Below are positions 1 through 32,618 of a stretch of DNA of 38,348 nucleotides, piece after piece (position 1 is the first letter of the stretch; every line of letters starts with the position of its first letter). The stretch lies in the IMG/VR virus record IMGVR_UViG_2609459797_000003; one strand, given 5' to 3'. The notes beneath the pieces were generated by a model. It had not been told where the DNA came from. It saw only the letters and a list, made by a program, of their open reading frames with translations, and did not search any database. This DNA is from a virus. Its lineage: Duplodnaviria > Heunggongvirae > Uroviricota > Caudoviricetes. The translations under genes were made by a program, and so were the position numbers.

Positions 1-1254
1 ATGCTGGAACAAATGGGCATTGCCGCGAAGCAAGCCTCGTATAAATTAGCGCAACTCTCCAGCCGCGAAAAAAATCGCGTGCTGGAAAAAATCGCCGATG
101 AACTGGAAGCACAAAGCGAAATCATCCTCAACGCTAACGCCCAGGATGTTGCTGACGCGCGAGCCAATGGCCTTAGCGAAGCGATGCTTGACCGTCTGGC
201 ACTGACGCCCGCACGGCTGAAAGGCATTGCCGACGATGTACGTCAGGTGTGCAACCTCGCCGATCCGGTGGGGCAGGTAATCGATGGCGGCGTACTGGAC
301 AGCGGCCTGCGTCTTGAGCGTCGTCGCGTACCGCTGGGGGTTATTGGCGTGATTTATGAAGCGCGCCCGAACGTGACGGTTGATGTCGCTTCGCTGTGCC
401 TGAAAACCGGTAATGCGGTGATCCTGCGCGGTGGCAAAGAAACGTGTCGCACTAACGCTGCAACGGTGGCGGTGATTCAGGACGCCCTGAAATCCTGCGG
501 CTTACCGGCGGGTGCCGTGCAGGCGATTGATAATCCTGACCGTGCGCTGGTCAGTGAAATGCTGCGTATGGATAAATACATCGACATGCTGATCCCGCGT
601 GGTGGCGCTGGTTTGCATAAACTGTGCCGTGAACAGTCGACAATCCCGGTGATCACAGGTGGTATAGGCGTATGCCATATTTACGTTGATGAAAGTGTAG
701 AGATCGCTGAAGCATTAAAAGTGATCGTCAACGCGAAAACTCAGCGTCCGAGCACATGTAATACGGTTGAAACGTTGCTGGTGAATAAAAACATCGCCGA
801 TAGCTTCCTGCCCGCATTAAGCAAACAAATGGCGGAAAGCGGCGTGACATTACACGCAGATGCAGCTGCACTGGCGCAGTTGCAGGCAGGCCCTGCGAAG
901 GTGGTTGCTGTTAAAGCCGAAGAGTATGACGATGAGTTTCTGTCATTAGATTTGAACGTCAAAATCGTCAGCGATCTTGACGATGCCATCGCCCATATTC
1001 GTGAACACGGCACACAACACTCCGATGCGATCCTGACCCGCGATATGCGCAACGCCCAGCGTTTTGTTAACGAAGTGGATTCGTCCGCTGTTTACGTTAA
1101 CGCCTCTACGCGTTTTACCGACGGCGGCCAGTTTGGTCTGGGTGCGGAAGTGGCGGTAAGCACACAAAAACTCCACGCGCGTGGCCCAATGGGGCTGGAA
1201 GCACTGACCACTTACAAGTGGATCGGCATTGGTGATTACACCATTCGTGCGTAA
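1..1254 (+). CDS. proA: gamma-glutamyl phosphate reductase (complete, 417 aa)
   Basis: Full-length ORF whose translation I recognise as E. coli ProA; stop TAA at 1252-1254. Confidence 0.95.
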
Positions 1255-1368
1255 ATAAAACCGGGTGATGCAAAAGTAGCCATTTGATTCACAAGGCCAT
1301 TGACGCATCGCCCGGTTAGTTTTAACCTTGTCCACCGTGATTCACGTTCGTGAACATGTCCTTTCAGG

Positions 1369-1444
1369 GCCGATATAGCTCAGTTGGTAGAGCAGCGCAT
1401 TCGTAATGCGAAGGTCGTAGGTTCGACTCCTATTATCGGCACCA
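1369..1444 (+). tRNA. thrW: tRNA-Thr (anticodon CGU)
   Basis: 76 nt 'GCCGATATAGCTCAGTTGGTAGAGCAGCGCATTCGTAATGCG...GGTTCGACTCCTATTATCGGCACCA': D-loop, T-loop GGTTCGA, CCA end, anticodon CGT in 'TTCGTAATG'. Confidence 0.95.
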
Positions 1445-1458
1445 TTTAAATCAATAAG

Positions 1459-2622
1459 TTACACATCATTAGTACCTTCCTTATTTTTTGACTGGGACAA
1501 ATTTGGGACCGATGGGTTCAGGATCGAGTCTATTTGCCGTGCGTGTTCGGTAAGGTGATTAGGTGCAAGGTGAGCATATCGACGAACCATTTCGATAGAC
1601 TCCCAGCCTCCCATTTCCTGTAACACTGACAACGGGACTCCGGCTTGAACCAGCCAACTTGCCCAGGTGTGTCTCAAGTCGTGAAATCTGAAATCATCAA
1701 TACCAGCCCGTCTCAGCGCCGCTTTCCAGGCTGTGTTTGCGTCATACCGCATCTTCCTTACTGTTGGCGCTTTCGTTCCGTCTGGTTTGGTACAGCTTTC
1801 CTTGTACACAAATACCCAACGGTGATGATTCCCGATTTGTTTTTTCAAAACGCGACATGCAGTATCATTCAGCGCAACGCCGATTGCGCGGTTTGATTTA
1901 CTCTCTTCTGGGTTTATCCATGCCACCCGGCGCTGCATATCTATTTGTTGCCATTCAAGGTTGATGATGTTCGAGCGTCTTAAGCCTGTTGCCAGTGCAA
2001 ATTCAACAACAGACTTTAATGGCTCCGGACATTCATCAATCAGCCTTTGTGCTTCATGGGGCTCCAGCCAGCGGATCCGTTTATTCTTTGGTTGAGGCAC
2101 TTTAATAATTGGTGCCTTATCCAGCATTTTCCATTCACGCTCTGCGGCTCTTAGTAGGGCCTTTATAAATGAAAGATGCGTAGCCTTCGTTGCAACGGAC
2201 GCTGGTTTTGGCGTGTATTCTGGAACAGGTTTCCCTTTTTTTCTGCATGCTTCTGCCCTGAGTTTCCAGTTTTCCTCATGACGCCGGTTCGTCATTTTCT
2301 GCATTGCTGAATAAATTTTTGATTCAGTAATGTCTCTTAGTTGCATTCCTGCGAAATGTTGAAGCCAGAATCCGATCCGGCTTTTGTCATCGTCCAGTGA
2401 TTTTTTATGTGCTTTCTCTTCAAGCCACCTGACACACGCTTCCTCGAACGTTATATCAGGTATTTCACCAAGTTTGCTGACCCGCCATGCTTCAGCCTTT
2501 AGCTTGTCATGGAGTTCTGTCGCCTGCCTTTTGTCCTTTGTTCCAAGAGACTGTTTAAATCTTTTACCGTTCGGCAATGTGAAACTGGCGTACCATATTT
2601 CACCTCTGCGGAAGAGTGACAT
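1459..2622 (-). CDS. phage tyrosine integrase
   Basis: 387 aa; N-terminus '[14 protein letters not shown]...' typical of prophage integrases; C-terminal '[39 protein letters not shown]' carries the R..H..R..Y catalytic signature; stop lies 14 bp from the tRNA 3' end. Confidence 0.9.
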
Positions 2623-4043: not shown

Positions 4044-4170
4044 TTTGTTCTCCACGTATATGCGCTGCACCGCGCTGAATTCTGGTAAAAAGAATCCCTC
4101 ACCATCCGGCGATTATTGAGTAAATTACGTTTCCATAAATGCCCCCGCAGGGGCATTTGCAGTAATGAAA

Positions 4171-4995
4171 TCAGGCGGTGAAAGTACCAATAAAGGTTTC
4201 TACTTTGCTGTCCTTGAATTTCTCAACAAGCAGATCACGAAATTCGTTAGCCATTTCTTCCTGCACCGCCTCCAGCTGAATAATGCGCAGAACCAGTACA
4301 GGACGATCGCCAGTGATAATACTGAGGCGTAATTTAAACGGACGTTCTTTCAGACCTTCAAACGGAACGCATTTAAATTCAAATGCCACTGGCATAATGT
4401 CTTTGGTCTTCGCTTCGACAGACTCCATCAGGGAGCGTTTGCCGCTGAAGTCATTATCTTCAAAATCAGCGGTATGGTTTGCTTCAATCGTGATTTTACG
4501 GACAGCCGCAGCCGCTTTTGTTGCCTGAATAGCGTCACCATTAGCATCAAAGCCCACAAGATAGTCGGCCCAGTCTTCAATCCATTCTGCCAGTGACTTC
4601 TGGGAGTTACGCTCGCCGTTAACAGTCAACAGAGCAGAGAACGGTGCTGTCTTTTTCAGTTTGAGTGTGGCGGTGTTATCTGCGTGACCTGGTTCATCAA
4701 TAGTACCCAGGTTAAGCACACTGACGGCACGCATATTATCAGCATCGATAAAGCAGCGGGTGCCTTCATCTGCAAGATCTTTAGAATAACGGGTAAAGTC
4801 ATCGATGCTGGCAGTGGAAAGCGCACCACGGAAACGGAAGCGATTTAAATTAAATTTTTCCAGATCATGAATGCGGAAATTCTCAGGCAATGCCACAGCA
4901 TCGGCACCAATCTTACTGATAATTTCATTAACACTCTGAGCAGAAATAAGGGCATGGATTTGATTAATTGCGGTTGCGTCTAAGTTCTGAGACAT
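4171..4995 (-). CDS. DUF2303-family phage protein (YfdQ-like)
   Basis: 274 aa; size and position next to the HD nucleotidase match the yfdQ-yfdR pair of KplE1-type prophages (recollection, not searched). Confidence 0.6.
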
Positions 4996-5060
4996 AATAA
5001 GTCCTCACTATATAAAGATATTCAGTGATGAGATAAATAATCAGTTAATTAAAAACGATA

Positions 5061-5423
5061 TTAACGACCTGCTGCGCGGAGTTTTCCGTCAGGTTCACCG
5101 GCAAGAGTCAGTAACTGTCCCTGGTCTTCCTGCAGAATAGTCAGGCGACCACCGCGATTGACATACATCGGCGTTTCGGTGGTGTCTTCTTCGGAAATTT
5201 TCCCGCGGTTAGTCGGGCGAACATATGAGAGTTTGTGTTTGATTTTCACACGGTTCTCATCAAATGGTTCGATTTCCAGGTTGAGTGAGACCTTACCTTT
5301 GGTTTTCGTGTTCATCACACCGGAAGCGACTTCACTGAGAACTGCGCCGATTTTGGTTTCAAATACGCCGCCGTCCAGCTCCCCGATAAATGCCTGCACA
5401 TCAGTACTGCGTTCGCTAGCCAT
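5061..5423 (-). CDS. hypothetical phage protein (YfdP-like)
   Basis: Start chosen at 'MASERSTDVQAF' because of GAGGAG Shine-Dalgarno upstream ('gaggagcagcaaaATG' on the minus strand); the longer ORF in the track (to 5741) runs into a structured non-coding region. Confidence 0.55.
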   Translation of the reverse strand: MASERSTDVQAFIGELDGGVFETKIGAVLSEVASGVMNTKTKGKVSLNLEIEPFDENRVKIKHKLSYVRPTNRGKISEEDTTETPMYVNRGGRLTILQEDQGQLLTLAGEPDGKLRAAGR

Positions 5424-5860
5424 TTTGCTGCTCCTCATCATATCGACCCTGCAAGGCCGATTAGTTTCTCCACAAAACAGAGAAGAACACCTGCGGTGGC
5501 AGCCGCCCGGATGGATTGGGTTATGAGCCCGTCGTCCGGTGATGCTCTTCTCTGTTTTGTAAAAAGGACGGTACCAGCCGGAAGCAAGGGTACAAGCTGG
5601 TACCGCCAGGACTACACACAGCATAAAGTTGTGGTGCCGGGTGCCTCCCGGTGCCTGGCGAAGGTTGCACACCAGGCGGGTGGGTATCCACAGAAGGTCG
5701 ACTGTCAGCCTCAACCTTAACCCGCGTGCGCTGAGCCGCATTCACCACAACGCTAAGGATTCTCTTTGGTTGAAAATACTTAGCTGTTATGTGCCTGTCT
5801 TTTCACCACTTCAGGCTCGGTGGTATCCTTTTAAGCCCGTATACATAAAAGGAAAATCAA

Positions 5861-6106
5861 ATGACTTTTGATGAAAAAGAACTTGATAATGCAATTAATA
5901 AAATCATCGTAACGTCGCTCTTTTCCTGTCTCAGCGACACTCAGCAGAAACAGTTCTACGAATCGGCTTTCAACATGATCGAGCGTTGTTGTTTCTGCGA
6001 TGCCGACGAGTTACCTGAAAAAATCAGGAAACAGTTGGCTGATGCTCTTCGAGTGCGACTTTCTGACCAATTTTCTGAAATGTGCTCTCCGAATTTGGAC
6101 AAATAG
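5861..6106 (+). CDS. hypothetical 81-aa protein transcribed rightward, opposite to the early-left operon
   Basis: ATG preceded by 'aaaaggaaaatcaa' (AAGGA Shine-Dalgarno, ~7 nt spacing); Cys-rich 'ERCCFCDADELPEKIRKQLADALRVRL'. Confidence 0.45.
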   Translation: MTFDEKELDNAINKIIVTSLFSCLSDTQQKQFYESAFNMIERCCFCDADELPEKIRKQLADALRVRLSDQFSEMCSPNLDK

Positions 6107-13012: not shown

Positions 13013-13029
13013 TTTTGTGGAGAAAGTTG

Positions 13030-13401
13030 ATGCGTGATATTCAAATGGTTCTTGAACGTTGGGGTGCATGGGTGGCAAATAATCACGAGGATGTCACTTG
13101 GTCGTCTATTGCTGCAGGATTTAAAGGACTAATCCCTTCAAAAGTAAAATCCCGCCCGCAATGTTGTGACGATGACGCGATGATCATTTGTGGGTGTATG
13201 GCTCGCCTGAAAAAGAACAACAGCGATTTGCACGATTTATTAGTGGATTACTATGTAGGAGGTATGACATTTATGGCGCTTGCCCGTAAACATGGGCGTT
13301 CTGATTGCTGGGTTGGGCGTTTATTGCAAAAAGCGGAAGGAGTAGTTGATGGTATGTTGATAATGCTAGATATTGAATTGGAAATGGAACGTAAAATTTA
13401 G
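13030..13401 (+). CDS. late-gene antiterminator Q (QuuD-type)
   Basis: '[34 protein letters not shown]...[30 protein letters not shown]' matches my recollection of DLP12 QuuD; position immediately upstream of the lysis module. Confidence 0.7.
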
Positions 13402-13630
13402 TTATGTTATGAATAAATAAATGCTAATGATTTTTGTAAGATAGCTCATTTTATGTCCATAGGTGATGTATGCATTAATATGATTAATTTGTCTCCTTAT
13501 AAAAATAAGATTATGTAAATAATAACAAAGGGTGACATTATTAAGTGTTGCTTTTTCTTAGTAAGTTGTTATCCTACTTAAGGTTGAATGATATTGTATC
13601 GAATAAAGTTGCTTATATAGAATTATTTTT

Positions 13631-14158
13631 ATGTTATGGCTTATTGAGTTAGTTAATAGGATGATTGAATCAATGCTTTCAAATGTAATTTTAAGTGGAG
13701 CTATGTCCACGTTATTGGCTGCATTTCTAATTTTTGTGTTTAAGGAGTATATAAAAAGGCCACCTAATTTTTCAGGGGTGTTTGAGATCGAGTGTAAAAC
13801 GCTAAAATCATCATATAATTCATATGTAAACCTAACTACATTCTATACATTAGTGTTGATTTGTGATAATAACACTATAGAAGGACATATTGAAAAAATA
13901 AAAGATATCGAAAATGATGGGAATGAAAGAAAATATATTGGCGTGCATCGCAATATTGGCGATGTCAATGGTGTAATTAAAAGAAATTACTTAAGACCTA
14001 ACCATGCTTCGTTGAATATAAAAATGCATGGTGATAAGAGGGATTATACTATTATGCTATATTTTAAGAAGGTGAATACGAAAAATATGAAAGGAACTTT
14101 TTTATCTACTGCTGCAGATTCTTCTGGAGATGTTAAGTGGCAGCGAAAAAATTTTTAA
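13631..14158 (+). CDS. AT-rich cassette gene 1: membrane-anchored protein of unknown function
   Basis: 175 aa; hydrophobic helix 'VILSGAMSTLLAAFLIFVF' near the N-terminus followed by 'KEYIKRPP'; Lys/Asn-rich low-GC codon usage. Start uncertain (ATG at 13631, 13661 or 13673). Confidence 0.55.
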   Translation: MLWLIELVNRMIESMLSNVILSGAMSTLLAAFLIFVFKEYIKRPPNFSGVFEIECKTLKSSYNSYVNLTTFYTLVLICDNNTIEGHIEKIKDIENDGNERKYIGVHRNIGDVNGVIKRNYLRPNHASLNIKMHGDKRDYTIMLYFKKVNTKNMKGTFLSTAADSSGDVKWQRKNF

Positions 14159-14781
14159 TTTATTTACTGTCGTTGCCATATTTAATAATGGCTTCGATTA
14201 TCATAAAGCTTAAAGTTAAAAGTATAATTGATGATTATGAGAAATGTACTACTTATATTTACTGTAACTCGAAGAAATATAATAACATTTCTCCTGTTAT
14301 GATTGATATATTAAGGTTAGCAGAGGATCATCGACAATTATTGCATAGAGGGATTGACCCCATTGCAATCATTAGAACTTTTTATCTGAGGATATTTAAA
14401 AATATACACCAAGGAGCGAGCACTATAGAACAGCAGTTTGTGAGAACTATAACTAAAAGATACGAAAAAACAATACGTAGAAAGATAAGAGAGCAGATAT
14501 TGGCTATATTGATTAGAAATGTATCAACTCCAGATGATATATGTAAGTGTTATCTTTCTTGTTGTTACTATGGCTATGGAACTTATGGGATAGATAATCT
14601 TTTAAAAAAGAAACAAAATATCAGTGATTTTGATATTGTTGCAATGATTAAATATCCATTCAGGGGAGAAGTTGTTTCAGTTACAGAGGAACGATTTAAA
14701 CATAGGTCGCTCTATCTTTCCACTTTATATAAATTAAATGCACAAAGGGATATGATTTTTTTGCGAAAATATAGTGGGTGA
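14137..14781 (+). CDS. AT-rich cassette gene 2: membrane-anchored GT51 (MtgA-like) peptidoglycan glycosyltransferase homolog
   Basis: GTG start with GGAGA Shine-Dalgarno 6 nt upstream, overlapping gene 1 by 22 nt. N-terminal hydrophobic 'FLIYLLSLPYLIMASIII'; then 'AEDHRQLLHRGID' (EDxxFxxHxG-like), 'GASTIEQQ' (GxSTxTQQ-like) and 'RRKIREQ' (RKxxE), with both candidate catalytic Glu present. Confidence 0.6.
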   Translation: MAAKKFLIYLLSLPYLIMASIIIKLKVKSIIDDYEKCTTYIYCNSKKYNNISPVMIDILRLAEDHRQLLHRGIDPIAIIRTFYLRIFKNIHQGASTIEQQFVRTITKRYEKTIRRKIREQILAILIRNVSTPDDICKCYLSCCYYGYGTYGIDNLLKKKQNISDFDIVAMIKYPFRGEVVSVTEERFKHRSLYLSTLYKLNAQRDMIFLRKYSG

Positions 14782-14978
14782 TTATGTTAAGTGTATTTTA
14801 TTATGTGTCAAAAAGTTTAGTCATCTCTGCTTAATGTATAATCGTGAATGTTTTTATTCAGATTTTATGCATGTCAAGTTGATGAGTGCCGTCGACATAA
14901 GATATGGGGATAATGAATAGTTTACAATCGTAAATAATAGAATATCCTGTTAAAAGTGGTTACTTCTCCACGCAGCTT

Positions 14979-15008
14979 AAACCCGCCGTCGAGCGGGTTT
15001 TGTCGTTT
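14979..15008 (+). terminator. rho-independent terminator between cassette and holin (tR'-like position)
   Basis: 'aaACCCGCcgtcgaGCGGGTtttgtcgtttc': 6-8 bp GC stem, 6-nt loop, U-rich tail. Confidence 0.6.
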
Positions 15009-25280: not shown

Positions 25281-25451
25281 ATGTTTGTCAAACCTGTTAA
25301 AGGGCGGTCAGTGCCTGACCCTGCCCGCGGCGACCTTTTGCCCGCCGAAGGGCGAAATGTTGACGAGAACAACTACTGGCTGCGCCGTGAAGCAGCGGGT
25401 GATATCCGGCGCGTGAATAAAAAGGTGAACACCGATGACGATAAGCTTTAA
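25281..25451 (+). CDS. small protein preceding tail sheath (56 aa)
   Basis: 'MFVKPVKGRSVPDPARGDLLPAEGRNVDENNYWLRREAAGDIRRVNKKVNTDDDKL'; overlaps the sheath start; below the ORF-track cutoff. Confidence 0.4.
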   Translation: MFVKPVKGRSVPDPARGDLLPAEGRNVDENNYWLRREAAGDIRRVNKKVNTDDDKL

Positions 25452-26931
25452 CACCATTCCGTCGAATACGCTGGTTCCGCTGTTTTATGCGGAAATGGAT
25501 AACCAGGCTGCGAATACTGCACAGGACAGCGGAGCATCGCTGCTGATTGGTCATGCCAATAACGGTGCAGAGATTGTTGCCAACAGTCTGGTGCTGATGC
25601 CGTCGGCAGACTATGCACGCCAGATTTGTGGTGCGGGAAGTCAGCTGGCGCGTATGGTCGAGGCTTATCGCCAGACAGACCCGTTTGGTGAGCTGTATGT
25701 GATTGCCGTTCCGGAAGCCACAGGCGCGGCGGCAACGGTTACGCTGGCGGTGACCGGGGAAGCAACCGAAAGCGGCACGGTGAATGTCTATGTGGGACGT
25801 ACCCGCGTGCAGGCTCCGGTGACCAACGGCGATAACGTCACGACGATTGCCAGCAGTATCAAAGATGCCATCAATGCCGTTCCGGCCCTGCCGTTTACGG
25901 CTTCATCTTCGGCAGGCGTGGTCACACTTACCGCGCGTCATAAGGGGCTTTGCGGGAATGAAATTCCTGTCAGCCTCAATTACTACGGCTTTGGTGGGGG
26001 CGAAGTGCTGCCAGCGGGCGTACAGATTGCCGTGGCGACGGGTACCGCCGGAACGGGTGCTCCGGTTCTCACCGGCGCGGTGGCTGCAATGGCGGATGAG
26101 CCGTTTGATTATATCGGCCTGCCGTTCAACGACACGGCCTCCGTTAACACGCTGGTGACCGAGATGAACGATACCAGCGGTCGCTGGAGCTATGCGCGTC
26201 AGCTGTATGGTCATGTGTATACGGCAAAGATCGGCACGCTGTCAGAACTGGTGACCGCAGGTGACCAGTTTAACCAGCAGCACATTACCCTGGCAGGGTA
26301 CGAAAAAGAGACCCAGACGCCTGCCGACGAACTTGCGGCAAGCCGTACCGCCCGCGCAGCGGTGTTTATCCGCAACGATCCGGCACGTCCCACGCAGACC
26401 GGTGAGCTGGTGGGTATGCTGCCTGCGCCGAAGGGGAAACGGTTCACGATGACCGAACAACAGACCCTGCTGTCTCATGGCGTGGCAACGGCGTATGTCG
26501 AAAGCGGGGTACTGCGCATTCAGCGTGATGTCACCACGTACAGGAAAAACGCTTACGGGGTTGCGGATAACAGCTACCTCGACAGTGAGACACTGCATAC
26601 CAGCGCGTATGTACTGCGCAAACTGAAATCCGTCATTACCAGTAAGTACGGGCGTCACAAGCTTGCCAGTGACGGTACCCGCTTTGGTCCCGGTCAGGCG
26701 ATTGTCACCCCGGCGGTGATCAAAGGGGAACTGCTGGCAACCTACCGTCAGCTTGAGCGTGCGGGGATCGTGGAAAACTACGAACTGTTTAAGCAGTACC
26801 TGGTTGTGGAGCGTGATGCCAGCGATCCGAACCGCCTGAACACGCTGTTCCCGCCTGACTATGTTAACCAGTTGCGTGTCTTTGCCGTGGTTAACCAGTT
26901 CCGTCTTCAGTATTCAGAGGAGTCTGCATAA
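25435..26931 (+). CDS. contractile tail sheath protein (Mu gpL-like)
   Basis: 498 aa; 'FNTIPSNTLVPLFYAEMDN' N-terminus typical of Mu-like sheath proteins; followed by the tube gene. Confidence 0.85.
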   Translation: MTISFNTIPSNTLVPLFYAEMDNQAANTAQDSGASLLIGHANNGAEIVANSLVLMPSADYARQICGAGSQLARMVEAYRQTDPFGELYVIAVPEATGAAATVTLAVTGEATESGTVNVYVGRTRVQAPVTNGDNVTTIASSIKDAINAVPALPFTASSSAGVVTLTARHKGLCGNEIPVSLNYYGFGGGEVLPAGVQIAVATGTAGTGAPVLTGAVAAMADEPFDYIGLPFNDTASVNTLVTEMNDTSGRWSYARQLYGHVYTAKIGTLSELVTAGDQFNQQHITLAGYEKETQTPADELAASRTARAAVFIRNDPARPTQTGELVGMLPAPKGKRFTMTEQQTLLSHGVATAYVESGVLRIQRDVTTYRKNAYGVADNSYLDSETLHTSAYVLRKLKSVITSKYGRHKLASDGTRFGPGQAIVTPAVIKGELLATYRQLERAGIVENYELFKQYLVVERDASDPNRLNTLFPPDYVNQLRVFAVVNQFRLQYSEESA

Positions 26932-27697: not shown

Positions 27698-29530
27698 ATG
27701 GCTGAATTTGAGCTTAAGGCGTTGATCACCGGTGTCGACAGACTTTCTCCCGCGCTGTCGAAAATGCAAAAGAAAATCCGGGGATTTAAACGCCAGGCGG
27801 AAGAAGCATCACAGGGTGGGCTGGCGCTTGGTGGCGGACTGGCAGCGGGTCTGACGCTTTCCCTGAAATCTTATGCCGATCAGGAAAACGCCGCCACCGG
27901 GCTGAAAGTCGCCATGATGGATGCGAACGGCGAGGTCGGAAAGAGCTTTCAGGGCATCAATAAACTGGCTATTGGCCTGGGTAACCAGCTACCCGGTACA
28001 ACGGCTGATTTCCAGAACATGATGCAGATGCTGGTGCGTCAGGGGATCCCGGCAGAAAATATTCTTGGCGGTGTGGGTAAAGCGACAGCTTATCTTGCGG
28101 TACAACTAAAAAAAACACCGGAAGCGGCTGCTGAGTTTGCTGCAAAGATGCAGGATGCTACCGGAACGGCGTCAGAAGACATGATGGGGCTGTTCGACAC
28201 TATCCAGAAGGCGTTTTATCTGGGCGTTGACGATACCAACATGTTGTCCTTCTTCACTAAAACCAGTTCTGTTCTGAAGATGGTGAACAAGGACGGTCTT
28301 CAGGCTGCACAGAGCCTTGCCCCCATCAGCGTCATGATGGATCAGATGGGGATGAACGGGGAGTCGGCAGGTAATGCCCTGCGAAAAGTTATCCAGTCCG
28401 GATTAAGCGTTAAGAAAATCAGGGACGTCAATAAAGTTATGGCCCGTCAGAAACTCGGGGTACAGCTCGATTTTACTGACGGCAAAGGAAGTTTTGGCGG
28501 TCTTGATAACATGTTTAAGCAACTGGCAAAGCTGCGAAAACTTACCGACGTTAAGCGAACAGGTGTACTTAAGGCAATATTTGGTGATGATGCCGAAACC
28601 CTTCAGGTGGTCAATGCGCTGATCGATAAAGGAAAGGATGGTTACGATCAGATCCAGCAAAAGATGAATAAACAGGCCAGCCTGAATAAACGTGTTCAGG
28701 CACAGCTTGGTACGCTGTCCAACCTGTGGGAGGCAATGACGGGGACCGCAACTAACGGCCTTGCGGCTATTGGCGGCGCATTTTCTGGTGACGCCAAAAA
28801 TATCACGCAATGGCTGGGGGAGTTGGGGGAAAAATTCACGAAGTTTGCGGATGAAAATCCCCGGGTTATTCGCGCCGTCGTCGGGCTTGCTGCCGGTCTT
28901 GCGATTCTGAAACTGGGATTGATGGGCGTGGGCAGTGCCATCAGCATTGTCAGCAGGATCATGTCGATGACGCCGATTGGCATGATTGCGACGGCGATAG
29001 CCCTGGCTGCGGGATTAATTATCACTAACTGGGATGTTGTCGGACCTTATTTCAAGAAGCTCTGGGAAACCATTGGTCCTTATTTTGAGGCTGGCTGGGA
29101 ACTCCTTAAGAAAGTTTTTGCCTGGTCGCCGCTGGGGATGGTGATCAATAACTGGGGGCCGGTTGTTAAGTGGTTTCAGGATATGTGGGACAAGCTGAAG
29201 CCAATTATTGAGTGGTTTACCGACAGTTCCGGTGACACGGTCGATGCCATTAACTCTGCGCAGTGGGGCGCGGGTGCTTATGATGCTTATGGGACGGGAA
29301 TACCGGCACGGGGATACACTCCTTATCCGGCGGTGGATCCGGCTCAGGCAAACAACGCCTCCGATGCCACAGGCTCGAATCCCTTCATGATTAATAAAGC
29401 TACCGCGCCAAAAGTTGATGGTGAGATCAAGGTATCATTTATAAATATGCCACCAGGTATGCGGGTTACGGAAACACGCTCCAGTGGCATTGATATAAAT
29501 CACGATGTTGGCTATACCCGATTTTGGTAG
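27698..29530 (+). CDS. tail tape measure protein
   Basis: 610 aa; Ala/Gly-rich with hydrophobic central segment; tape-measure position. Confidence 0.85.
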   Translation: MAEFELKALITGVDRLSPALSKMQKKIRGFKRQAEEASQGGLALGGGLAAGLTLSLKSYADQENAATGLKVAMMDANGEVGKSFQGINKLAIGLGNQLPGTTADFQNMMQMLVRQGIPAENILGGVGKATAYLAVQLKKTPEAAAEFAAKMQDATGTASEDMMGLFDTIQKAFYLGVDDTNMLSFFTKTSSVLKMVNKDGLQAAQSLAPISVMMDQMGMNGESAGNALRKVIQSGLSVKKIRDVNKVMARQKLGVQLDFTDGKGSFGGLDNMFKQLAKLRKLTDVKRTGVLKAIFGDDAETLQVVNALIDKGKDGYDQIQQKMNKQASLNKRVQAQLGTLSNLWEAMTGTATNGLAAIGGAFSGDAKNITQWLGELGEKFTKFADENPRVIRAVVGLAAGLAILKLGLMGVGSAISIVSRIMSMTPIGMIATAIALAAGLIITNWDVVGPYFKKLWETIGPYFEAGWELLKKVFAWSPLGMVINNWGPVVKWFQDMWDKLKPIIEWFTDSSGDTVDAINSAQWGAGAYDAYGTGIPARGYTPYPAVDPAQANNASDATGSNPFMINKATAPKVDGEIKVSFINMPPGMRVTETRSSGIDINHDVGYTRFW

Positions 29531-29558
29531 CCAGGATTCCCCTCACATGTATTGCTGG

Positions 29559-29586
29559 TTGTAAGTCATAAATAGAGTGATAGAAT
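29559..29586 (+). promoter_or_regulatory. sigma70-like promoter for tail-operon moron
   Basis: -35 TTGTAA (29559-29564), 16-nt spacer, -10 TAGAAT (29581-29586), ~35 nt upstream of the ATG at 29622. Confidence 0.45.
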
Positions 29587-29621
29587 TAATGCACATTTAG
29601 AAAAATGTTAATAGGCGAAAA

Positions 29622-30152
29622 ATGAAAGGCTATATCACAGCAAGTGTAATTCTTGGAGCAGCGGCTATTTTTTCATCTCTCATAATCTCTGGCAACATCT
29701 CCTTTAAAGATGAACATATTATTCAGTTATCTGGAGGAGCCATAAAACTTGGTGATGTTTATAAAGAAAATAAATTGATAAGTGCAAAGATTATTTTTCC
29801 AGATAATCAGGGTGAACAGATTCTTGTTGTCGACGGCAATCCTGAAAACTTTAAGGAGGATTTTCAGGAGAAATTAAATAAAGTAATAAAAACTTTAAAT
29901 GCGTCAAAGAAAAAAGATGAAGAGAAAGTTAGCCTGGATAATTTAAGTGTTATTGAAGAGTCTAAACTAGAGCTCGTTTCTGCGGTGCGTTACTCTGCTC
30001 AGTATGTTCCTATGTTTACTCTGACGCTGGACAAAAAAGAAATTACCATGCCTAAAAATACGGTAATATTTCCATTTGCCAGCGATGAAACAGCTAAGTA
30101 TTTAAATGAACAACAGCAAAAGTATAAAGATTCGTTGTTTCTGACCCGCTAA
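29622..30152 (+). CDS. AT-rich moron: secreted or membrane-anchored protein of unknown function
   Basis: 176 aa; N-terminal 'MKGYITASVILGAAAIFSSLIISG' signal or anchor; Lys/Asn/Glu-rich; flanked by its own promoter-like sequence and terminator. Confidence 0.55.
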   Translation: MKGYITASVILGAAAIFSSLIISGNISFKDEHIIQLSGGAIKLGDVYKENKLISAKIIFPDNQGEQILVVDGNPENFKEDFQEKLNKVIKTLNASKKKDEEKVSLDNLSVIEESKLELVSAVRYSAQYVPMFTLTLDKKEITMPKNTVIFPFASDETAKYLNEQQQKYKDSLFLTR

Positions 30153-30170
30153 TTAATAAAATTCATTACA

Positions 30171-30204
30171 AGGCCACCTTCTAATAGGTGGCTTTTTTAT
30201 TTTC
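30171..30204 (+). terminator. rho-independent terminator after moron
   Basis: 'AGGCCACCttctaatAGGTGGCTTTTTTATTTT': ~8-bp stem plus long U-tract. Confidence 0.75.
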
Positions 30205-30213
30205 GGAGTGTAT

Positions 30214-31542
30214 ATGACGTGGAAAGACAGGCTTCAGGATGCGTCATTTCGAGGTGTGCCGTTTAAGGTTGAAGAAGAAAGTGCGGGAACCGGTCGCCGT
30301 GTGGAAACACATGAATACCCGAACCGCGACAAGCCCTATACCGAAGATCTGGGAAAAGTCACTTTCCGCCCGTCCATCACAGCTTATGTGGTGGGAGATG
30401 ACTGCTTTGACCAGCGCGATCGCCTGATTGAAGCGCTGAATAAACCCGGTCCCGGCACGCTTGTCCACCCGACATATGGTGAGCTGAAAGTCTGTGTTGA
30501 CGGGGAAGTTCGGGTCAGCACATCGAAAAGTGAAGGGCGTATTGTCCGCTTTGACCTGAAGTTTGTCGAAGCAGGAGAACTCTCTTACCCCACATCAGGT
30601 GCGGCGACGGCGCAGACGCTGATGTCATCCTGTTCTGCACTGGATGACTGCATCAGTGACAGCTTCAGCGGTTTCAGTATCGATGGTGTGGCGGATTTCG
30701 TGCAGAACGACGTTATCGGTAATGCCAGCATAATGCTGGGGTATGTTTCTGATGCGATGAAAGTGGTGGATTCTGCCGTATCGGATGCCGCCAGGCTGTT
30801 GCAGGGGGATATCTCGGTACTTCTGCCGCCGCCATCGTCAGGCAAAAATTTCGTTGAGCAGGTGCAGAAAATGTGGCGTACCGGGAAACGCCTTTATGGT
30901 AACGCCAGCGACCTGGTCACCATGATCAAAACGCTTTCCGGTGTCAGCCTCGGCAGCGATCTGCAACCGCGCGGCGTCTGGAAAACGGACAGTAAAACCA
31001 CCGCCACGGCGACGCAGCAGCGTAACGTGGTTGCCAGCACCCTTCGTACGACCGCAATCAGCGAAGCGGCGTATGCCGTCACCCGATTGCCTGCGCCAAC
31101 AACTTCCGCGGTGATGCAGAATGCCGCAGTGGGGCAGGCAACAACAGCTGCGCAGAGCACCGGCTGGCCTTCCGTCACGCATCCGGCACTGAACAATGCA
31201 CCGGCGGTGAAAAACACGGTTGATCTGCCGACGTGGGAAGAACTGACTGACATTCGCGACACACTGAATACGGCAATTGATAAGGAGTTGTCCCGTACAA
31301 CCAGTGATGCGCTGTTTCTGGCGCTGCGCCGGGTGAAAGCAGATCTGAATGCGGATATCAACACGCGCCTTGAACAGTCTGCACGGATCATTCAGCGCAC
31401 ACCGGATGAGGTTTTACCCGCGCTGGTGCTGGCGGCGACCTGGTTTGATAACGCGGCGCGTGACGCGGACATTATCCGGCGTAATGCCATTACGCATCCC
31501 GGCTTTGTGCCGGTGATCCCTCTGAAGGTGCCAGTGCAATGA
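30214..31542 (+). CDS. DNA circulation protein (Mu gpN-like)
   Basis: 'MTWKDRLQDASFRGVPFKVEEESAGTGRRVETHEYPNRDKPYTEDLG' is the Mu N-family N-terminus; GGAG Shine-Dalgarno. Confidence 0.8.
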   Translation: MTWKDRLQDASFRGVPFKVEEESAGTGRRVETHEYPNRDKPYTEDLGKVTFRPSITAYVVGDDCFDQRDRLIEALNKPGPGTLVHPTYGELKVCVDGEVRVSTSKSEGRIVRFDLKFVEAGELSYPTSGAATAQTLMSSCSALDDCISDSFSGFSIDGVADFVQNDVIGNASIMLGYVSDAMKVVDSAVSDAARLLQGDISVLLPPPSSGKNFVEQVQKMWRTGKRLYGNASDLVTMIKTLSGVSLGSDLQPRGVWKTDSKTTATATQQRNVVASTLRTTAISEAAYAVTRLPAPTTSAVMQNAAVGQATTAAQSTGWPSVTHPALNNAPAVKNTVDLPTWEELTDIRDTLNTAIDKELSRTTSDALFLALRRVKADLNADINTRLEQSARIIQRTPDEVLPALVLAATWFDNAARDADIIRRNAITHPGFVPVIPLKVPVQ

Positions 31543-32618
31543 ACGACAATGTCACGCTACGGGTAAATGGCCGGGAGTGGAATGGCTGGACATCGGTGCG
31601 CATCGGTGCCGGTATTGAACGGCTGGCGCGGGATTTCAGTGTGGAGATCCCCCGCCAGTGGCCGGGAGATGAGGGTATCACCACGCTTCAGCCGCGCATT
31701 AAAAATGGTTCAAAAGTGGAAGTGCTGATTGGTGATGAGCTGGTGATCACCGGCTGGGTGGAGGCGACGCCCGTTCGTTACGATGCCCGTTCGGTCAGCA
31801 CCGGTATTGCCGGACGTAGTCTGACGGCAGACCTGATTGACTGTGCAGCCGAACCGACACAGTTTAACGGACGCTCGCTGGTGCAGATTGCGCAGGCGCT
31901 TGCTGCGCCTTTCGGTATTGAGGTGGTGAACAGCGGTGCGCCGTCGGGTGTTATTCCTGATGTTCAGCCTGATCACGGTGAAACGGTGATTGAGGTAATC
32001 AACAAAATACTCGGTCAGCAGCAGGCACTGGCTTACGACGACCCGCACGGCAGGCTGGTGATTGGCGGTATTGGCTCAACGCGGGCACATACTGCGCTGG
32101 TACTCGGGGAAAACATCCTTTCCTGCGATACGGAGAAGAGTATCCGGGAGCGATTTTCTGTTTACCAGGTGGCGGGGCAGCGTGCCGGAAACGACGATGA
32201 TTTCGGTGAGACCACCACCACCGCGCTGCGGGCCCGCACAGAGGACGCATTTATTGCCCGTTACCGTCCGATGTATATCAGGCAGACAGGGCAGGCCACG
32301 GGGGCAGGCTGTATCGCGCGTGCTGACTTTGAAGCCCGGCAACGGGCGGCGCGGACGGATGAAACCACCTATGTGGTGCAGGGCTGGCGACAGGGTAACG
32401 GTACGCTGTGGCAGCCCAACCAGCGGGTGATTGTCTTCGATCCGGTCTGTGGTTTCGACAATACCGAACTGCTTGTCTCGGAAGTCACGTTTACTCAGGA
32501 CCAGAACGGCACCCTGACGGAAATCCGTGTCGGCCCACCTGATGCTTATCTGCCTGAACCCGAAGCCCCCGGCGCGCGGAAAAAGAAAAAAGCCAGAGTA
32601 CAGGAGGACCCGTTCTGA
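31539..32618 (+). CDS. baseplate hub protein (Mu gpP / P2 gpD-like)
   Basis: 359 aa; 'VTLRVNGREWNGWTSVRIGAGIERLARDFSVEI' matches the family N-terminus. Confidence 0.8.
   Translation: MNDNVTLRVNGREWNGWTSVRIGAGIERLARDFSVEIPRQWPGDEGITTLQPRIKNGSKVEVLIGDELVITGWVEATPVRYDARSVSTGIAGRSLTADLIDCAAEPTQFNGRSLVQIAQALAAPFGIEVVNSGAPSGVIPDVQPDHGETVIEVINKILGQQQALAYDDPHGRLVIGGIGSTRAHTALVLGENILSCDTEKSIRERFSVYQVAGQRAGNDDDFGETTTTALRARTEDAFIARYRPMYIRQTGQATGAGCIARADFEARQRAARTDETTYVVQGWRQGNGTLWQPNQRVIVFDPVCGFDNTELLVSEVTFTQDQNGTLTEIRVGPPDAYLPEPEAPGARKKKKARVQEDPF

What the first reader, a model, noticed from the sequence alone, without database searches (positions are those of the whole stretch)
29531..30204. Self-contained AT-rich moron between tape-measure and DNA-circulation genes
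The tight GC-rich tail operon is interrupted by ~670 bp of AT-rich DNA holding one gene with its own sigma70-like promoter (TTGTAA, 16 nt, TAGAAT) and a strong intrinsic terminator ('AGGCCACCttctaatAGGTGGCTTTTTTATTTT'). The product has an N-terminal signal or anchor and a Lys/Glu-rich body. This architecture and exact location parallel the HK97 superinfection-exclusion moron gp15, an inner-membrane protein encoded after the tape-measure gene; the protein itself is not recognisably similar to anything I know.
Basis: partly seen in the sequence, partly recalled or inferred. Interest (0 to 1): 0.7.

Follow-up and report, generated by a model that had tools for sequence, protein, structure and literature searches.

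The report
Exported-protein moron in prophage tail operon
A small AT-rich accessory gene sits between two tail genes of an E. coli prophage; it encodes a membrane-anchored periplasmic protein of unknown family, occupies a slot that holds at least six interchangeable cargo genes, and probably protects the lysogen from other phages, though that is untested.

Summary
Window 29531-30204 is a GC 0.34 island between the tape-measure gene and the Mu N-like DNA-circularisation gene, both GC 0.51-0.56. It holds one 176-aa ORF (29622-30152), a sigma70-like promoter match and a strong terminator hairpin.

The prophage is SfV-like, Q-antiterminated and integrated at tRNA-Thr. The gene is accessory: SfV, SfI, SfII and vB_EcoM-689R6 have a 45-bp empty junction. 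In E. coli genomes the same junction carries at least six unrelated AT-rich cargo genes. Five of the six have export signals, and one matches a PHROG annotated "Sie-like".

The protein has an N-terminal TM helix plus a roughly 150-aa periplasmic alpha/beta domain (AF2 pLDDT 91.5). It has no PDB, Pfam, NCBIfam or PADLOC match. It is PHROG 5485 (function unknown), is under purifying selection (dN/dS 0.08), and occurs in about 3% of complete E. coli genomes. Homologues sit in three different contractile-tail module types and elsewhere, always AT-rich.

"Moron" is therefore supported. Two points need correcting: the terminator also exists at empty sites, and HK97 gene 15 lies upstream of its tape-measure gene, not after it. 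Superinfection exclusion is the best guess (about 0.45) but is only inferred. I file it as a new member of a known kind, of moderate interest.

The parts
27698..29530 (+). Tail tape-measure protein gene (610 aa), left border of the junction
   Evidence: PF10145 E 5.7e-27; phrog_28/17727 tape measure
29531..29621 (+). AT-rich upstream region with a sigma70-like promoter match: -35 TTGTAA 29559-29564, 16-nt spacer, extended -10 TGaTAGAAT, hexamer 29581-29586; weak SD (AGG) before the ATG
   Evidence: 9 of 12 matches, TG present; site count not above shuffles. Promoter-like hexamers ending 17-38 nt before the ATG also occur in 5 of 6 homologue loci and can be read by eye ahead of two other cargo types in the sequences.
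29622..30152 (+). ORF-X, 176 aa: TM helix at residues 2-22 (N-in), periplasmic alpha/beta domain at about 30-171; PHROG 5485
   Evidence: Purifying selection.
30170..30204 (+). Intrinsic terminator: 10-bp stem, 6-nt loop (30170-30195), then a T-run. A counterpart exists at the empty junction.
   Evidence: dG -15.6, z -5.5. The empty-site hairpin in SfV has dG -14.3, z -4.4.
30214..31542 (+). DNA-circularisation (Mu N/gp43-like) tail gene with its GGAG RBS at 30205-30208, right border of the junction
   Evidence: PF07157 E 3.7e-34; the motif CCGGAGTnTAT-ATG is conserved across most occupancy states
13015..13401 (+). Late antiterminator Q. Context only: it explains how late transcription can cross the terminator at 30170-30204.
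   Evidence: PF06530 E 2.9e-51; SfIV, a relative, is described with antitermination Q (PMC3851460)

Best explanation
**What it is (confidence about 0.85).** A single-gene moron occupies a polymorphic cargo slot between the tape-measure and DNA-circularisation genes. The host element is an SfV-like E. coli prophage with a Mu-like tail. The gene is dispensable for virion formation.

**How it most likely works (confidence about 0.45 for the anti-phage part).**
1. In the lysogen the gene is transcribed from its own sigma70 promoter near 29559-29586 and stops at the hairpin at 30170-30204. This step is inferred.
2. The 176-aa product is inserted into the inner membrane by its N-terminal helix, N-in, or is secreted if the helix is cleaved. 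Either way the roughly 150-aa alpha/beta domain ends up in the periplasm. This is inferred from sequence and the AF2 model.
3. There it binds an envelope component or an incoming tail or ejection protein. No conserved catalytic-looking residues are present. This blocks superinfecting phages at the receptor or DNA-delivery step, which is superinfection exclusion. This step is inferred by analogy and from the allelic neighbours.
4. In lytic growth, Q-modified RNA polymerase reads through the terminator, so downstream tail genes are still expressed. This follows from the established function of Q.
For: **Accessory and mobile**
- The junction is empty in four isolated phages.
- The gene is present in 175 of 5426 complete E. 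coli genomes, out of about 1090 that have the junction.
- At least six unrelated cargo genes occupy the same slot in either orientation, all at GC 0.31-0.42 against 0.50-0.56 in the flanks.
- Homologues stay AT-rich (0.29-0.42) in most backgrounds examined, and most are followed by a hairpin. These backgrounds include Mu-like tails, E217-like tails, a Yersinia tail module and a Pantoea non-tail region. L099 and L100 show no contrast with their flanks.

**Functional gene**
- dN/dS is 0.08 between two Leclercia-type copies.
- Among 75 E. coli copies there are 14 synonymous and 9 non-synonymous segregating sites and one frameshift.

**Exported**
- All 52 aligned family members have one N-terminal hydrophobic run (median 19 residues). 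46 of 52 have a positively charged N-terminus, and none has a second TM segment.
- AF2 with 52 sequences gives pLDDT 91.5 and a helix at residues 2-22.

**Guilt by allelic position**
- Five of the six cargo types carry a signal peptide, a lipobox or a TM anchor.
- The OB-fold allele matches phrog_8545 'superinfection exclusion Sie-like' at E 1.5e-49.
- The only structural neighbour is a phage lipoprotein in BFVD (E 1.2e-6).

**Supporting context**
- A Q gene is present in the window.
- A decayed prophage in strain cM2a still keeps the gene at 100% identity.
Against: - There is no experimental data and no transcript evidence.
- The promoter match is not statistically above chance.
- The protein has no similarity to any characterised Sie protein, PADLOC defence model, Pfam or NCBIfam family.
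- The 'Sie-like' label on the allelic OB-fold protein is an annotation, not a tested function.
- X identity does not co-vary with TMP type: TMP is 38% versus 80% identical at the same X identity. That argues against a TMP-allele-specific partnership of the HK97 gp15 kind.
- In Edwardsiella only 13 bp separate the gene from the next tail gene. In one E217-like locus its start overlaps the upstream gene, so it may there be expressed mainly with late genes.
- The strong preference of the family for tail modules is not explained by a generic Sie role.
Confidence: 0.5

Rival explanations
1. It is a lysogenic-conversion factor unrelated to phage defence. The periplasmic domain would alter envelope physiology, for example stress tolerance, serum or bile resistance, adhesion, or protection from colicins or tailocins. 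That would benefit the host directly, as lambda Lom/Bor or Cor against colicin M do.
For: - The anatomy is the same as for the main hypothesis: an exported protein in an AT-rich moron under purifying selection.
- The gene is retained at 100% identity in a decayed prophage remnant in strain cM2a.
- A distant member lies beside chromosomal gluconate dehydrogenase genes with no phage genes in view.
- PMC3594210 lists many non-defence moron functions.
Against: - The family is overwhelmingly found inside prophage tail modules. Ten of 14 distinct loci examined are of this kind.
- One allelic cargo is annotated Sie-like.
- The protein has no similarity to any known virulence or fitness factor.
Confidence: 0.25
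2. It is a late-expressed helper of the phage's own lytic cycle. It would be made mainly by read-through from the tail operon. It would mask the receptor or close the injection route in already infected or lysing cells so that progeny are not wasted, as T5 Llp does or as proposed for Zip. Alternatively it would modulate the envelope before lysis.
For: - It has the same orientation as the late operon and lies downstream of a Q-antiterminated promoter.
- In Edwardsiella (13-bp spacer) and in one E217-like locus (overlapping start) there is no room for independent signals on one side.
- The abstract of preprint 10.1101/2024.03.05.583538 describes prophage Sie proteins that act to ensure survival of progeny.
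Against: - In this window, and in most homologue loci, the gene has a 34-105-bp AT-rich leader with promoter-like hexamers and its own hairpin.
- The OB-fold cargo of the same slot is on the opposite strand, so it cannot be late-operon driven.
- This is a sub-type of exclusion rather than a truly different function.
Confidence: 0.13
3. It is a tail or ejection protein. The hydrophobic N-terminus would be a membrane-inserting helix used during infection. The family's fidelity to tape-measure and hub neighbourhoods would reflect a structural or assembly role.
For: - The position next to the TMP or hub genes is kept down to 29-38% identity, and in three different contractile-tail architectures.
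- X identity tracks the identity of the DNA-circularisation protein.
Against: - It is absent from viable phages with near-identical flanking genes.
- It is replaced at the same site by proteins with a cleavable Sec signal or a lipobox, which cannot be virion parts.
- It is persistently 10-20 GC points below its tail neighbours in nearly all tail-module and prophage loci.
- It also occurs outside tail modules.
- No homologue is found in 50,697 GenBank phage genomes.
Confidence: 0.05
4. It is a non-functional hitch-hiking ORF in junk AT-rich DNA.
For: The gene has no known function, and the promoter match is not significant on its own.
Against: - dN/dS is 0.08.
- 75 of 76 full-length E. coli copies are intact.
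- The family is conserved over its full length across at least 77 clusters.
- The AF2 fold is confident.
Confidence: 0.02

Closest known systems
HK97 gene 15 moron (gp15, YebO-like superinfection exclusion protein; Cumby et al. 2012, reviewed in PMC3594210)
   Same: - It is a single-gene moron inside a tail operon, adjacent to the tape-measure gene.
- It has a composition different from its neighbours.
- It has its own expression signals.
- Its product goes to the inner membrane.
- It is absent from close relatives.
   Different: - gp15 lies between the chaperone and TMP genes, upstream of the TMP; here the gene lies downstream of the TMP.
- gp15 is a small YebO-family protein, whereas this protein has a roughly 150-aa periplasmic domain and no Pfam hit.
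- gp15 sensitivity maps to the tail region of the phage, whereas X does not co-vary with TMP type.
- The host phage is a siphovirus in one case and a contractile Mu-like tail in the other.
P22 SieA (PMC10883804)
   Same: [quoted passage not shown] It exists as several very divergent sequence types.
   Different: There is no detectable sequence relationship: no Sie-annotated PHROG was hit. The genomic location differs, and the target would have to be a contractile-tail delivery apparatus rather than podovirus ejection proteins.
T5 Llp / phi80-N15-HK022 Cor type receptor blockers
   Same: These are small exported phage proteins that act in the envelope. The only structural neighbour of X is a phage lipoprotein, and one allelic cargo is a lipoprotein.
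   Different: X has a TM or signal anchor and no lipobox. There is no sequence similarity, and no receptor is known.
phrog_8545 'superinfection exclusion Sie-like' (TM-anchored tRNA_anti-like OB-fold, PF12869)
   Same: It occupies exactly the same junction in other E. coli SfV-like prophages. It is of similar size, has an N-terminal anchor and is AT-rich.
   Different: The fold and sequence are unrelated, and it is on the opposite strand.
P2/P4 hotspots of antiviral systems (Rousset et al. 2022, PMC9122126) and P2 moron positions (PMC3573123)
   Same: These are fixed intergenic positions in a prophage backbone that hold interchangeable accessory cargo.
   Different: Here the cargo is always one small gene. 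It is mostly an exported protein and is not a known multi-gene cytoplasmic defence system. No cargo type matches PADLOC.

Membership tests
Moron (Juhala/Hendrix sense) | Present in some and absent from other otherwise similar phage genomes, at a gene boundary | tested here: met
   The junction is empty (45 bp) in SfV, SfI, SfII and 689R6. It is occupied in 175 E. coli genomes.
Moron (Juhala/Hendrix sense) | Base composition different from the surrounding genes | tested here: met
   GC is 0.34 against 0.51 and 0.54 in the flanks. The same contrast holds in most of the homologue loci examined; L099 and L100 are the exceptions.
Moron (Juhala/Hendrix sense) | Own promoter | tested here: inconclusive
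   There is a 9-of-12 match with an extended -10 in the right place, but the site count is not above shuffles. Comparable sites are seen in homologue loci, and by eye ahead of two other cargo types in the, 106 sequences.
Moron (Juhala/Hendrix sense) | Own terminator | tested here: met
   The hairpin is strong, z = -5.5. However, an equivalent hairpin exists at empty sites, so it is a property of the junction and is not brought in by the cargo.
Moron (Juhala/Hendrix sense) | Expressed from the repressed prophage | not testable with these tools
   This needs RNA-seq or 5'-RACE of a lysogen.
HK97 gp15 / YebO family | Sequence membership (YebO-like N-terminal region) | tested here: not met
   Zero Pfam families at E <= 0.1. 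None of the 52 family members hits a YebO model among the top families.
HK97 gp15 / YebO family | Location between the tail assembly chaperone and TMP genes | tested here: not met
   In this window the gene follows the TMP gene. The HK97 position is given in PMC3594210.
Characterised superinfection-exclusion families (PHROG-annotated Sie, SieA, Imm, Cor etc.) | Profile match to an annotated Sie family | tested here: not met
   The only PHROG hits are 5485 and 34391 (function unknown) and a chance-level endonuclease hit.
Characterised superinfection-exclusion families | Blocks adsorption or DNA entry of superinfecting phage | not testable with these tools
   This needs plating and injection assays.
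PHROG 5485 | Full-length profile match | tested here: met
   E 3.8e-108, residues 1-176 of 176.
Known anti-phage defence systems (PADLOC-DB v2) | Match to any defence protein model | tested here: not met
   Zero families at E <= 1.
Structural tail component of Mu-like tails | Conserved in all related functional phages | tested here: not met
   It is absent from four isolated phages and from about half of the sampled E. coli junctions.
Bitopic (type II) inner-membrane / exported protein | A single N-terminal hydrophobic segment, a positive N-terminus and no other TM segment | tested here: met
   52 of 52 members have the segment and 46 of 52 have a net positive N-terminus. AF2 places a helix at residues 2-22. 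Cleavage after ISG(24) cannot be excluded. No SignalP or TMHMM was available.

The most novel reading that the evidence does not exclude
The tape-measure | DNA-circularisation junction of SfV-like (Mu-like tail) prophages would be a dedicated slot for interchangeable single-gene cassettes. These encode exported proteins that act as envelope-level anti-phage barriers.

ORF-X would be the founding member of a structurally new exclusion family with no PDB neighbour. The family would travel specifically with contractile-tail modules of at least three architectures. One reason could be that it targets the periplasm-crossing step of contractile-tail DNA delivery, or of tailocins.
Probability: 0.3. 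Interest if true: 0.65.

Novelty: new member of a known kind. Interest (0 to 1): 0.5.

Why it matters
If the inferred function holds, the locus yields a new, widespread family of envelope-level phage-exclusion proteins. It is present in about 3% of complete E. coli genomes and also in Leclercia, Lelliottia, Edwardsiella, Mangrovibacter, Yersinia and Pantoea. Its fold has no solved relative.

The locus also gives a compact natural library of at least six alternative cargo genes at one junction. These could be screened side by side for effects on phage therapy candidates. The junction is a clean example of how Q-antiterminated late operons tolerate terminator-bounded cargo.

If the gene turns out to have no phage phenotype, it remains an ordinary uncharacterised moron.

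Tried and rejected
**Searches that returned nothing**
- Pfam, NCBIfam and PADLOC scans of X found no family. A Pfam scan of all 52 family members gave only scattered chance hits.
- Foldseek against PDB gave no hit at E < 1e-3.
- A profile search of PDB sequences gave nothing.
- The afdb50 library was unavailable.
- tblastn of X against 50,697 GenBank phages found no match.
- A literature search for WP_000679479 found no papers.
- An Rfam scan of the window found only the tRNA.

**Searches that were limited**
- The search for related loci failed with the broad alignment because no block was conserved enough. With the close alignment in genome contigs it returned only one locus, from Edwardsiella.
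- The first AF2 run with 14 sequences was poor (pLDDT 62.9). It was replaced by the 52-sequence run.

**Ideas tested and dropped**
- TMP-specific co-evolution was rejected, because X identity is unchanged between TMP types that are 38% and 80% identical.
- A shared promoter block among different cargo cassettes is not supported. The upstream regions align poorly (47% mean column identity), and only -10-like elements line up.
- The weak phrog_15137 'endonuclease' hit (E 0.014) was dismissed.
- Anti-correlation between X and a second SfV-like prophage was considered, but the numbers available from the listed rows were too small to test.

Full report
**1. Observation**

The window is an E. coli prophage integrated at tRNA-Thr(CGU) (1369-1444) next to an ORF that corresponds by synteny to proA. 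It carries:
- an integrase at 1459-2622;
- a lambdoid Q antiterminator at 13015-13401;
- a Mu-like contractile tail module: sheath at 25435-26931, tube, chaperone, tape measure (TMP) at 27698-29530, a DNA-circularisation (Mu N-like) gene at 30214-31542, and a gpP-like hub at 31539-32618.

Its closest sequenced relatives are the serotype-converting Shigella phages SfV, SfI and SfII, and the E. coli phages vB_EcoM-689R6 and SKA5.

Between the TMP and DNA-circularisation genes lie 683 bp at GC 0.34, against 0.51 and 0.54 in the flanks. This stretch contains:
- one ORF at 29622-30152 (176 aa), here called X;
- a sigma70-like match, TTGTAA-16-TAGAAT with a TG extension, at 29559-29586;
- a 10-bp hairpin plus T-run at 30170-30204 (dG -15.6 kcal/mol, z -5.5).

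One caveat applies: promoter-like matches are no more frequent here than in shuffled sequence.

**2. The gene is accessory and the site is a hotspot**

SfV, SfI, SfII and 689R6 match both flanks at 87-88% DNA identity. In SfV and SfII, which I aligned, only 45 bp separate the two genes. SKA5 has an unrelated 170-aa ORF in the same place.

About 1090 of 5426 complete E. coli genomes carry the junction. Of these, 175 carry X at 95% DNA identity or better over the whole cassette.

I took an evenly spaced sample of 60 records. Twelve matched only the right flank because their TMP differs; they show the same pattern, including a sixth cargo type, a 162-aa protein with a classical signal peptide. 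The other 48 matched both flanks and broke down as follows:

| Junction state | Records (of 48) |
|---|---|
| Empty | 23 |
| X | 11 |
| SKA5-type, a 164-170-aa protein with a cleavable signal peptide | 6 |
| TM-anchored tRNA_anti-like OB-fold protein, on the opposite strand | 4 |
| 225-aa lipoprotein (lipobox LLGGC) | 3 |
| Cytoplasmic bPH_1 PH-domain protein | 1 |

All cargo is AT-rich, at 0.31-0.42. Five of the six cargo types carry export signals.

Both empty sites (SfV, SfII) and all five + strand cargo types sequenced have a GC-rich hairpin plus T-run immediately before the conserved CCGGAGTTTAT-ATG of the DNA-circularisation gene. The terminator therefore belongs to the junction, and cargo sits between the TMP stop codon and that terminator. 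The OB-fold cargo is convergent with the TMP gene and shares a hairpin with it.

**3. The protein**

X has no Pfam, NCBIfam or PADLOC match. It is a full-length member of PHROG 5485, function unknown.

An exhaustive profile search found 77 representative clusters at 50% identity. Apart from truncated fragments they are about 165-200 aa long, with a few longer (224-286 aa). In a 52-member alignment:
- every sequence has a single N-terminal hydrophobic run (median 19 residues);
- 46 of 52 have a positive N-terminus;
- none has a second hydrophobic segment;
- the invariant or near-invariant residues are G39, L43, G44, E49, N93, Y124 and L134, which is not a catalytic-looking set.

AlphaFold2 with that alignment gives pLDDT 91.5. 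The model has a helix at 2-22, a linker, a beta-hairpin at 33-42, strands at 46-58 and 67-72, a helix at 74-93, strands at 114-126 and 132-143, and a helix at 149-171.

The most economical reading is a bitopic N-in/C-out inner-membrane protein. If the protein is cleaved after ISG(24), it would instead be a soluble periplasmic protein. In either case it acts by binding and not by catalysis.

**4. Selection and evolutionary behaviour**

dN/dS between two Leclercia-type copies is 0.08. Among 75 E. coli copies from IMG/VR there are 14 synonymous and 9 non-synonymous segregating sites, and one further copy has a frameshift. A badly decayed prophage in strain cM2a lacks head genes and has a truncated TMP, yet retains X at 100% identity over the 901-bp query.

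Homologues at decreasing identity sit at exactly the same TMP | X | DNA-circularisation position:

| Source | Identity to X |
|---|---|
| Leclercia, Lelliottia | 53-56% |
| Edwardsiella | 41% |
| Mangrovibacter | 38% |
| Metagenome contig | 29-31% |

X identity falls in step with that of the DNA-circularisation protein (69-71%, 57%, 47%). It is independent of TMP type: TMP identity is 38% versus 80% at equal X identity.

More distant members lie in other contexts:
- E217-like myovirus tail modules, between hub genes and the sheath-initiator and baseplate-J genes;
- a Yersinia prophage, between two small genes and a 767-aa gene that I read, by position only (no Pfam hit), as chaperone and TMP; that would be the HK97 gene-15 position;
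- a Pantoea prophage, between the holin and RecT regions;
- next to a UvrD/PD-(D/E)xK, methyltransferase and ResIII/TnsA-like cluster, though this member is borderline at E 5e-4;
- next to chromosomal gluconate dehydrogenase genes.

In all but two of these contexts the gene stays well below its neighbours in GC (0.29-0.42 against 0.44-0.56). L099 and L100 show no contrast. In most contexts it is followed by a hairpin. This is the behaviour of a long-lived, horizontally mobile cassette with a preference for tail-operon junctions. It is not the behaviour of a structural gene. No homologue is detectable in 50,697 GenBank phage genomes.

**5. Mechanism**

Shown directly:
- the accessory status of the gene;
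- its compositional foreignness;
- the hotspot;
- purifying selection;
- the single N-terminal hydrophobic segment (export is the inference from it);
- the confident fold;
- the terminator;
- the presence of Q.

Inferred:
- transcription from the gene's own promoter in the lysogen;
- Sec/YidC insertion with the domain in the periplasm;
- read-through by Q-modified polymerase in lytic growth;
- an anti-phage (superinfection-exclusion) activity at the envelope.

The anti-phage activity rests on four points:
- analogy with HK97 gp15, P22 SieA, Cor and Llp (PMC3594210, PMC10883804);
- the export bias of the slot's cargo;
- the match of the allelic OB-fold cargo to phrog_8545 'superinfection exclusion Sie-like' (E 1.5e-49);
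- the phage-lipoprotein structural neighbour.

I put about 0.85 on 'exported accessory moron product' and about 0.45 on 'superinfection exclusion'. The rivals are:
- a host-fitness conversion factor, 0.25;
- a late-expressed helper that protects progeny, 0.13;
- a tail or ejection protein, 0.05;
- junk, 0.02.

**6. Comparison with the known**

In architecture and logic this is a textbook moron. It is not a member of the gp15/YebO family, nor of any annotated Sie family, nor of any PADLOC system.

Gene 15 lies between the chaperone and TMP genes (PMC3594210). The 'own terminator' is shared with the empty site.

I found no description of this junction as a cargo hotspot, and none of PHROG 5485, in the searchable literature. 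That library is incomplete, so this is not proof of novelty.

**7. Verdict**

The feature is real and the moron interpretation is supported. Function is inferred only. It is a new member of a known kind and of moderate interest (0.5).

The most novel reading still open is a dedicated slot for exported anti-phage cassettes, with a structurally new exclusion family tied to contractile tails. I give that a probability of about 0.3 and an interest of 0.65 if true.

Noticed in passing
window 13400-15000: A second AT-rich island (GC 0.29-0.32) lies immediately downstream of the Q antiterminator and upstream of the lysis genes. It holds a 175-aa ORF (13631-14158) with no Pfam, PHROG or PADLOC hit. 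It also holds a 214-aa ORF (14137-14781) with a PF00912 peptidoglycan transglycosylase domain (E 1.6e-23). The island is absent from GenBank phages; only its right edge matches SfII and SfIV. This is the moron position described for SfIV (PMC3851460).
   Followed up: partly
window 1-2622: The prophage is integrated at tRNA-Thr(CGU) (1369-1444), beside the ORF at 1-1254, which corresponds by synteny to proA. The tyrosine integrase is at 1459-2622 on the minus strand. The same chromosomal site holds the decayed relative in strain cM2a.
   Followed up: partly
L102 (E. coli cM2a, NZ_CM176588.1 3507000-3550000): This is a heavily degraded copy of the prophage: head genes are deleted, the TMP gene is truncated to 1191 nt, and Q and baseplate J are pseudogenes. 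It still carries ORF-X within a 901-bp stretch that is 100% identical to the window. That is a hint that the gene is kept for the host's benefit.
   Followed up: no
L004-L009 (Leclercia/Lelliottia prophages), e.g. L004:8013-9808: Two extra genes (503-507 aa and 94 aa, no Pfam hit on record) are inserted between the DNA-circularisation gene and the gpP hub gene. They are absent from the window and may mark another cargo position one gene downstream.
   Followed up: no
L001:1640-1676 (SfV), L003 (SfII) and all cargo states: Even the empty TMP | DNA-circularisation junction carries a terminator-like hairpin plus T-run inside the late tail operon (dG -14.3, z -4.4). SfII's annotators marked it as a putative rho-independent terminator. 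Its role in an operon that must be read through is unexplained. It may insulate the lysogen or define the cargo slot.
   Followed up: partly
L011:832-1218 (E. coli SW070912): This copy of the OB-fold Sie-like cargo is shortened. It lacks the N-terminal TM anchor present in L010 and L015, and the intergenic region is 143-149 bp shorter. It is probably a decaying allele.
   Followed up: no
L004 vs L009 TMP genes (4147-5931 / 4141-5931): The tape-measure proteins of two otherwise similar Leclercia-type tail modules are 38% and 80% identical to the window's TMP. Their X and DNA-circularisation proteins are equally distant from the window's. This indicates mosaic exchange of the TMP gene alone.
   Followed up: partly
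L100:1-5657: A borderline family member (P0099, E 5e-4) lies 343 bp downstream of three genes: a UvrD-helicase/PD-(D/E)xK gene, an N6/N4 methyltransferase gene and a ResIII/TnsA-like gene. This looks like a defence-island neighbourhood.
   Followed up: no
phages collection: No homologue of ORF-X is detectable by tblastn in 50,697 GenBank phage genomes. Yet the gene is common in E. coli prophages and in IMG/VR contigs (80 or more loci). X-bearing prophages seem not to have been isolated as phages.
   Followed up: no
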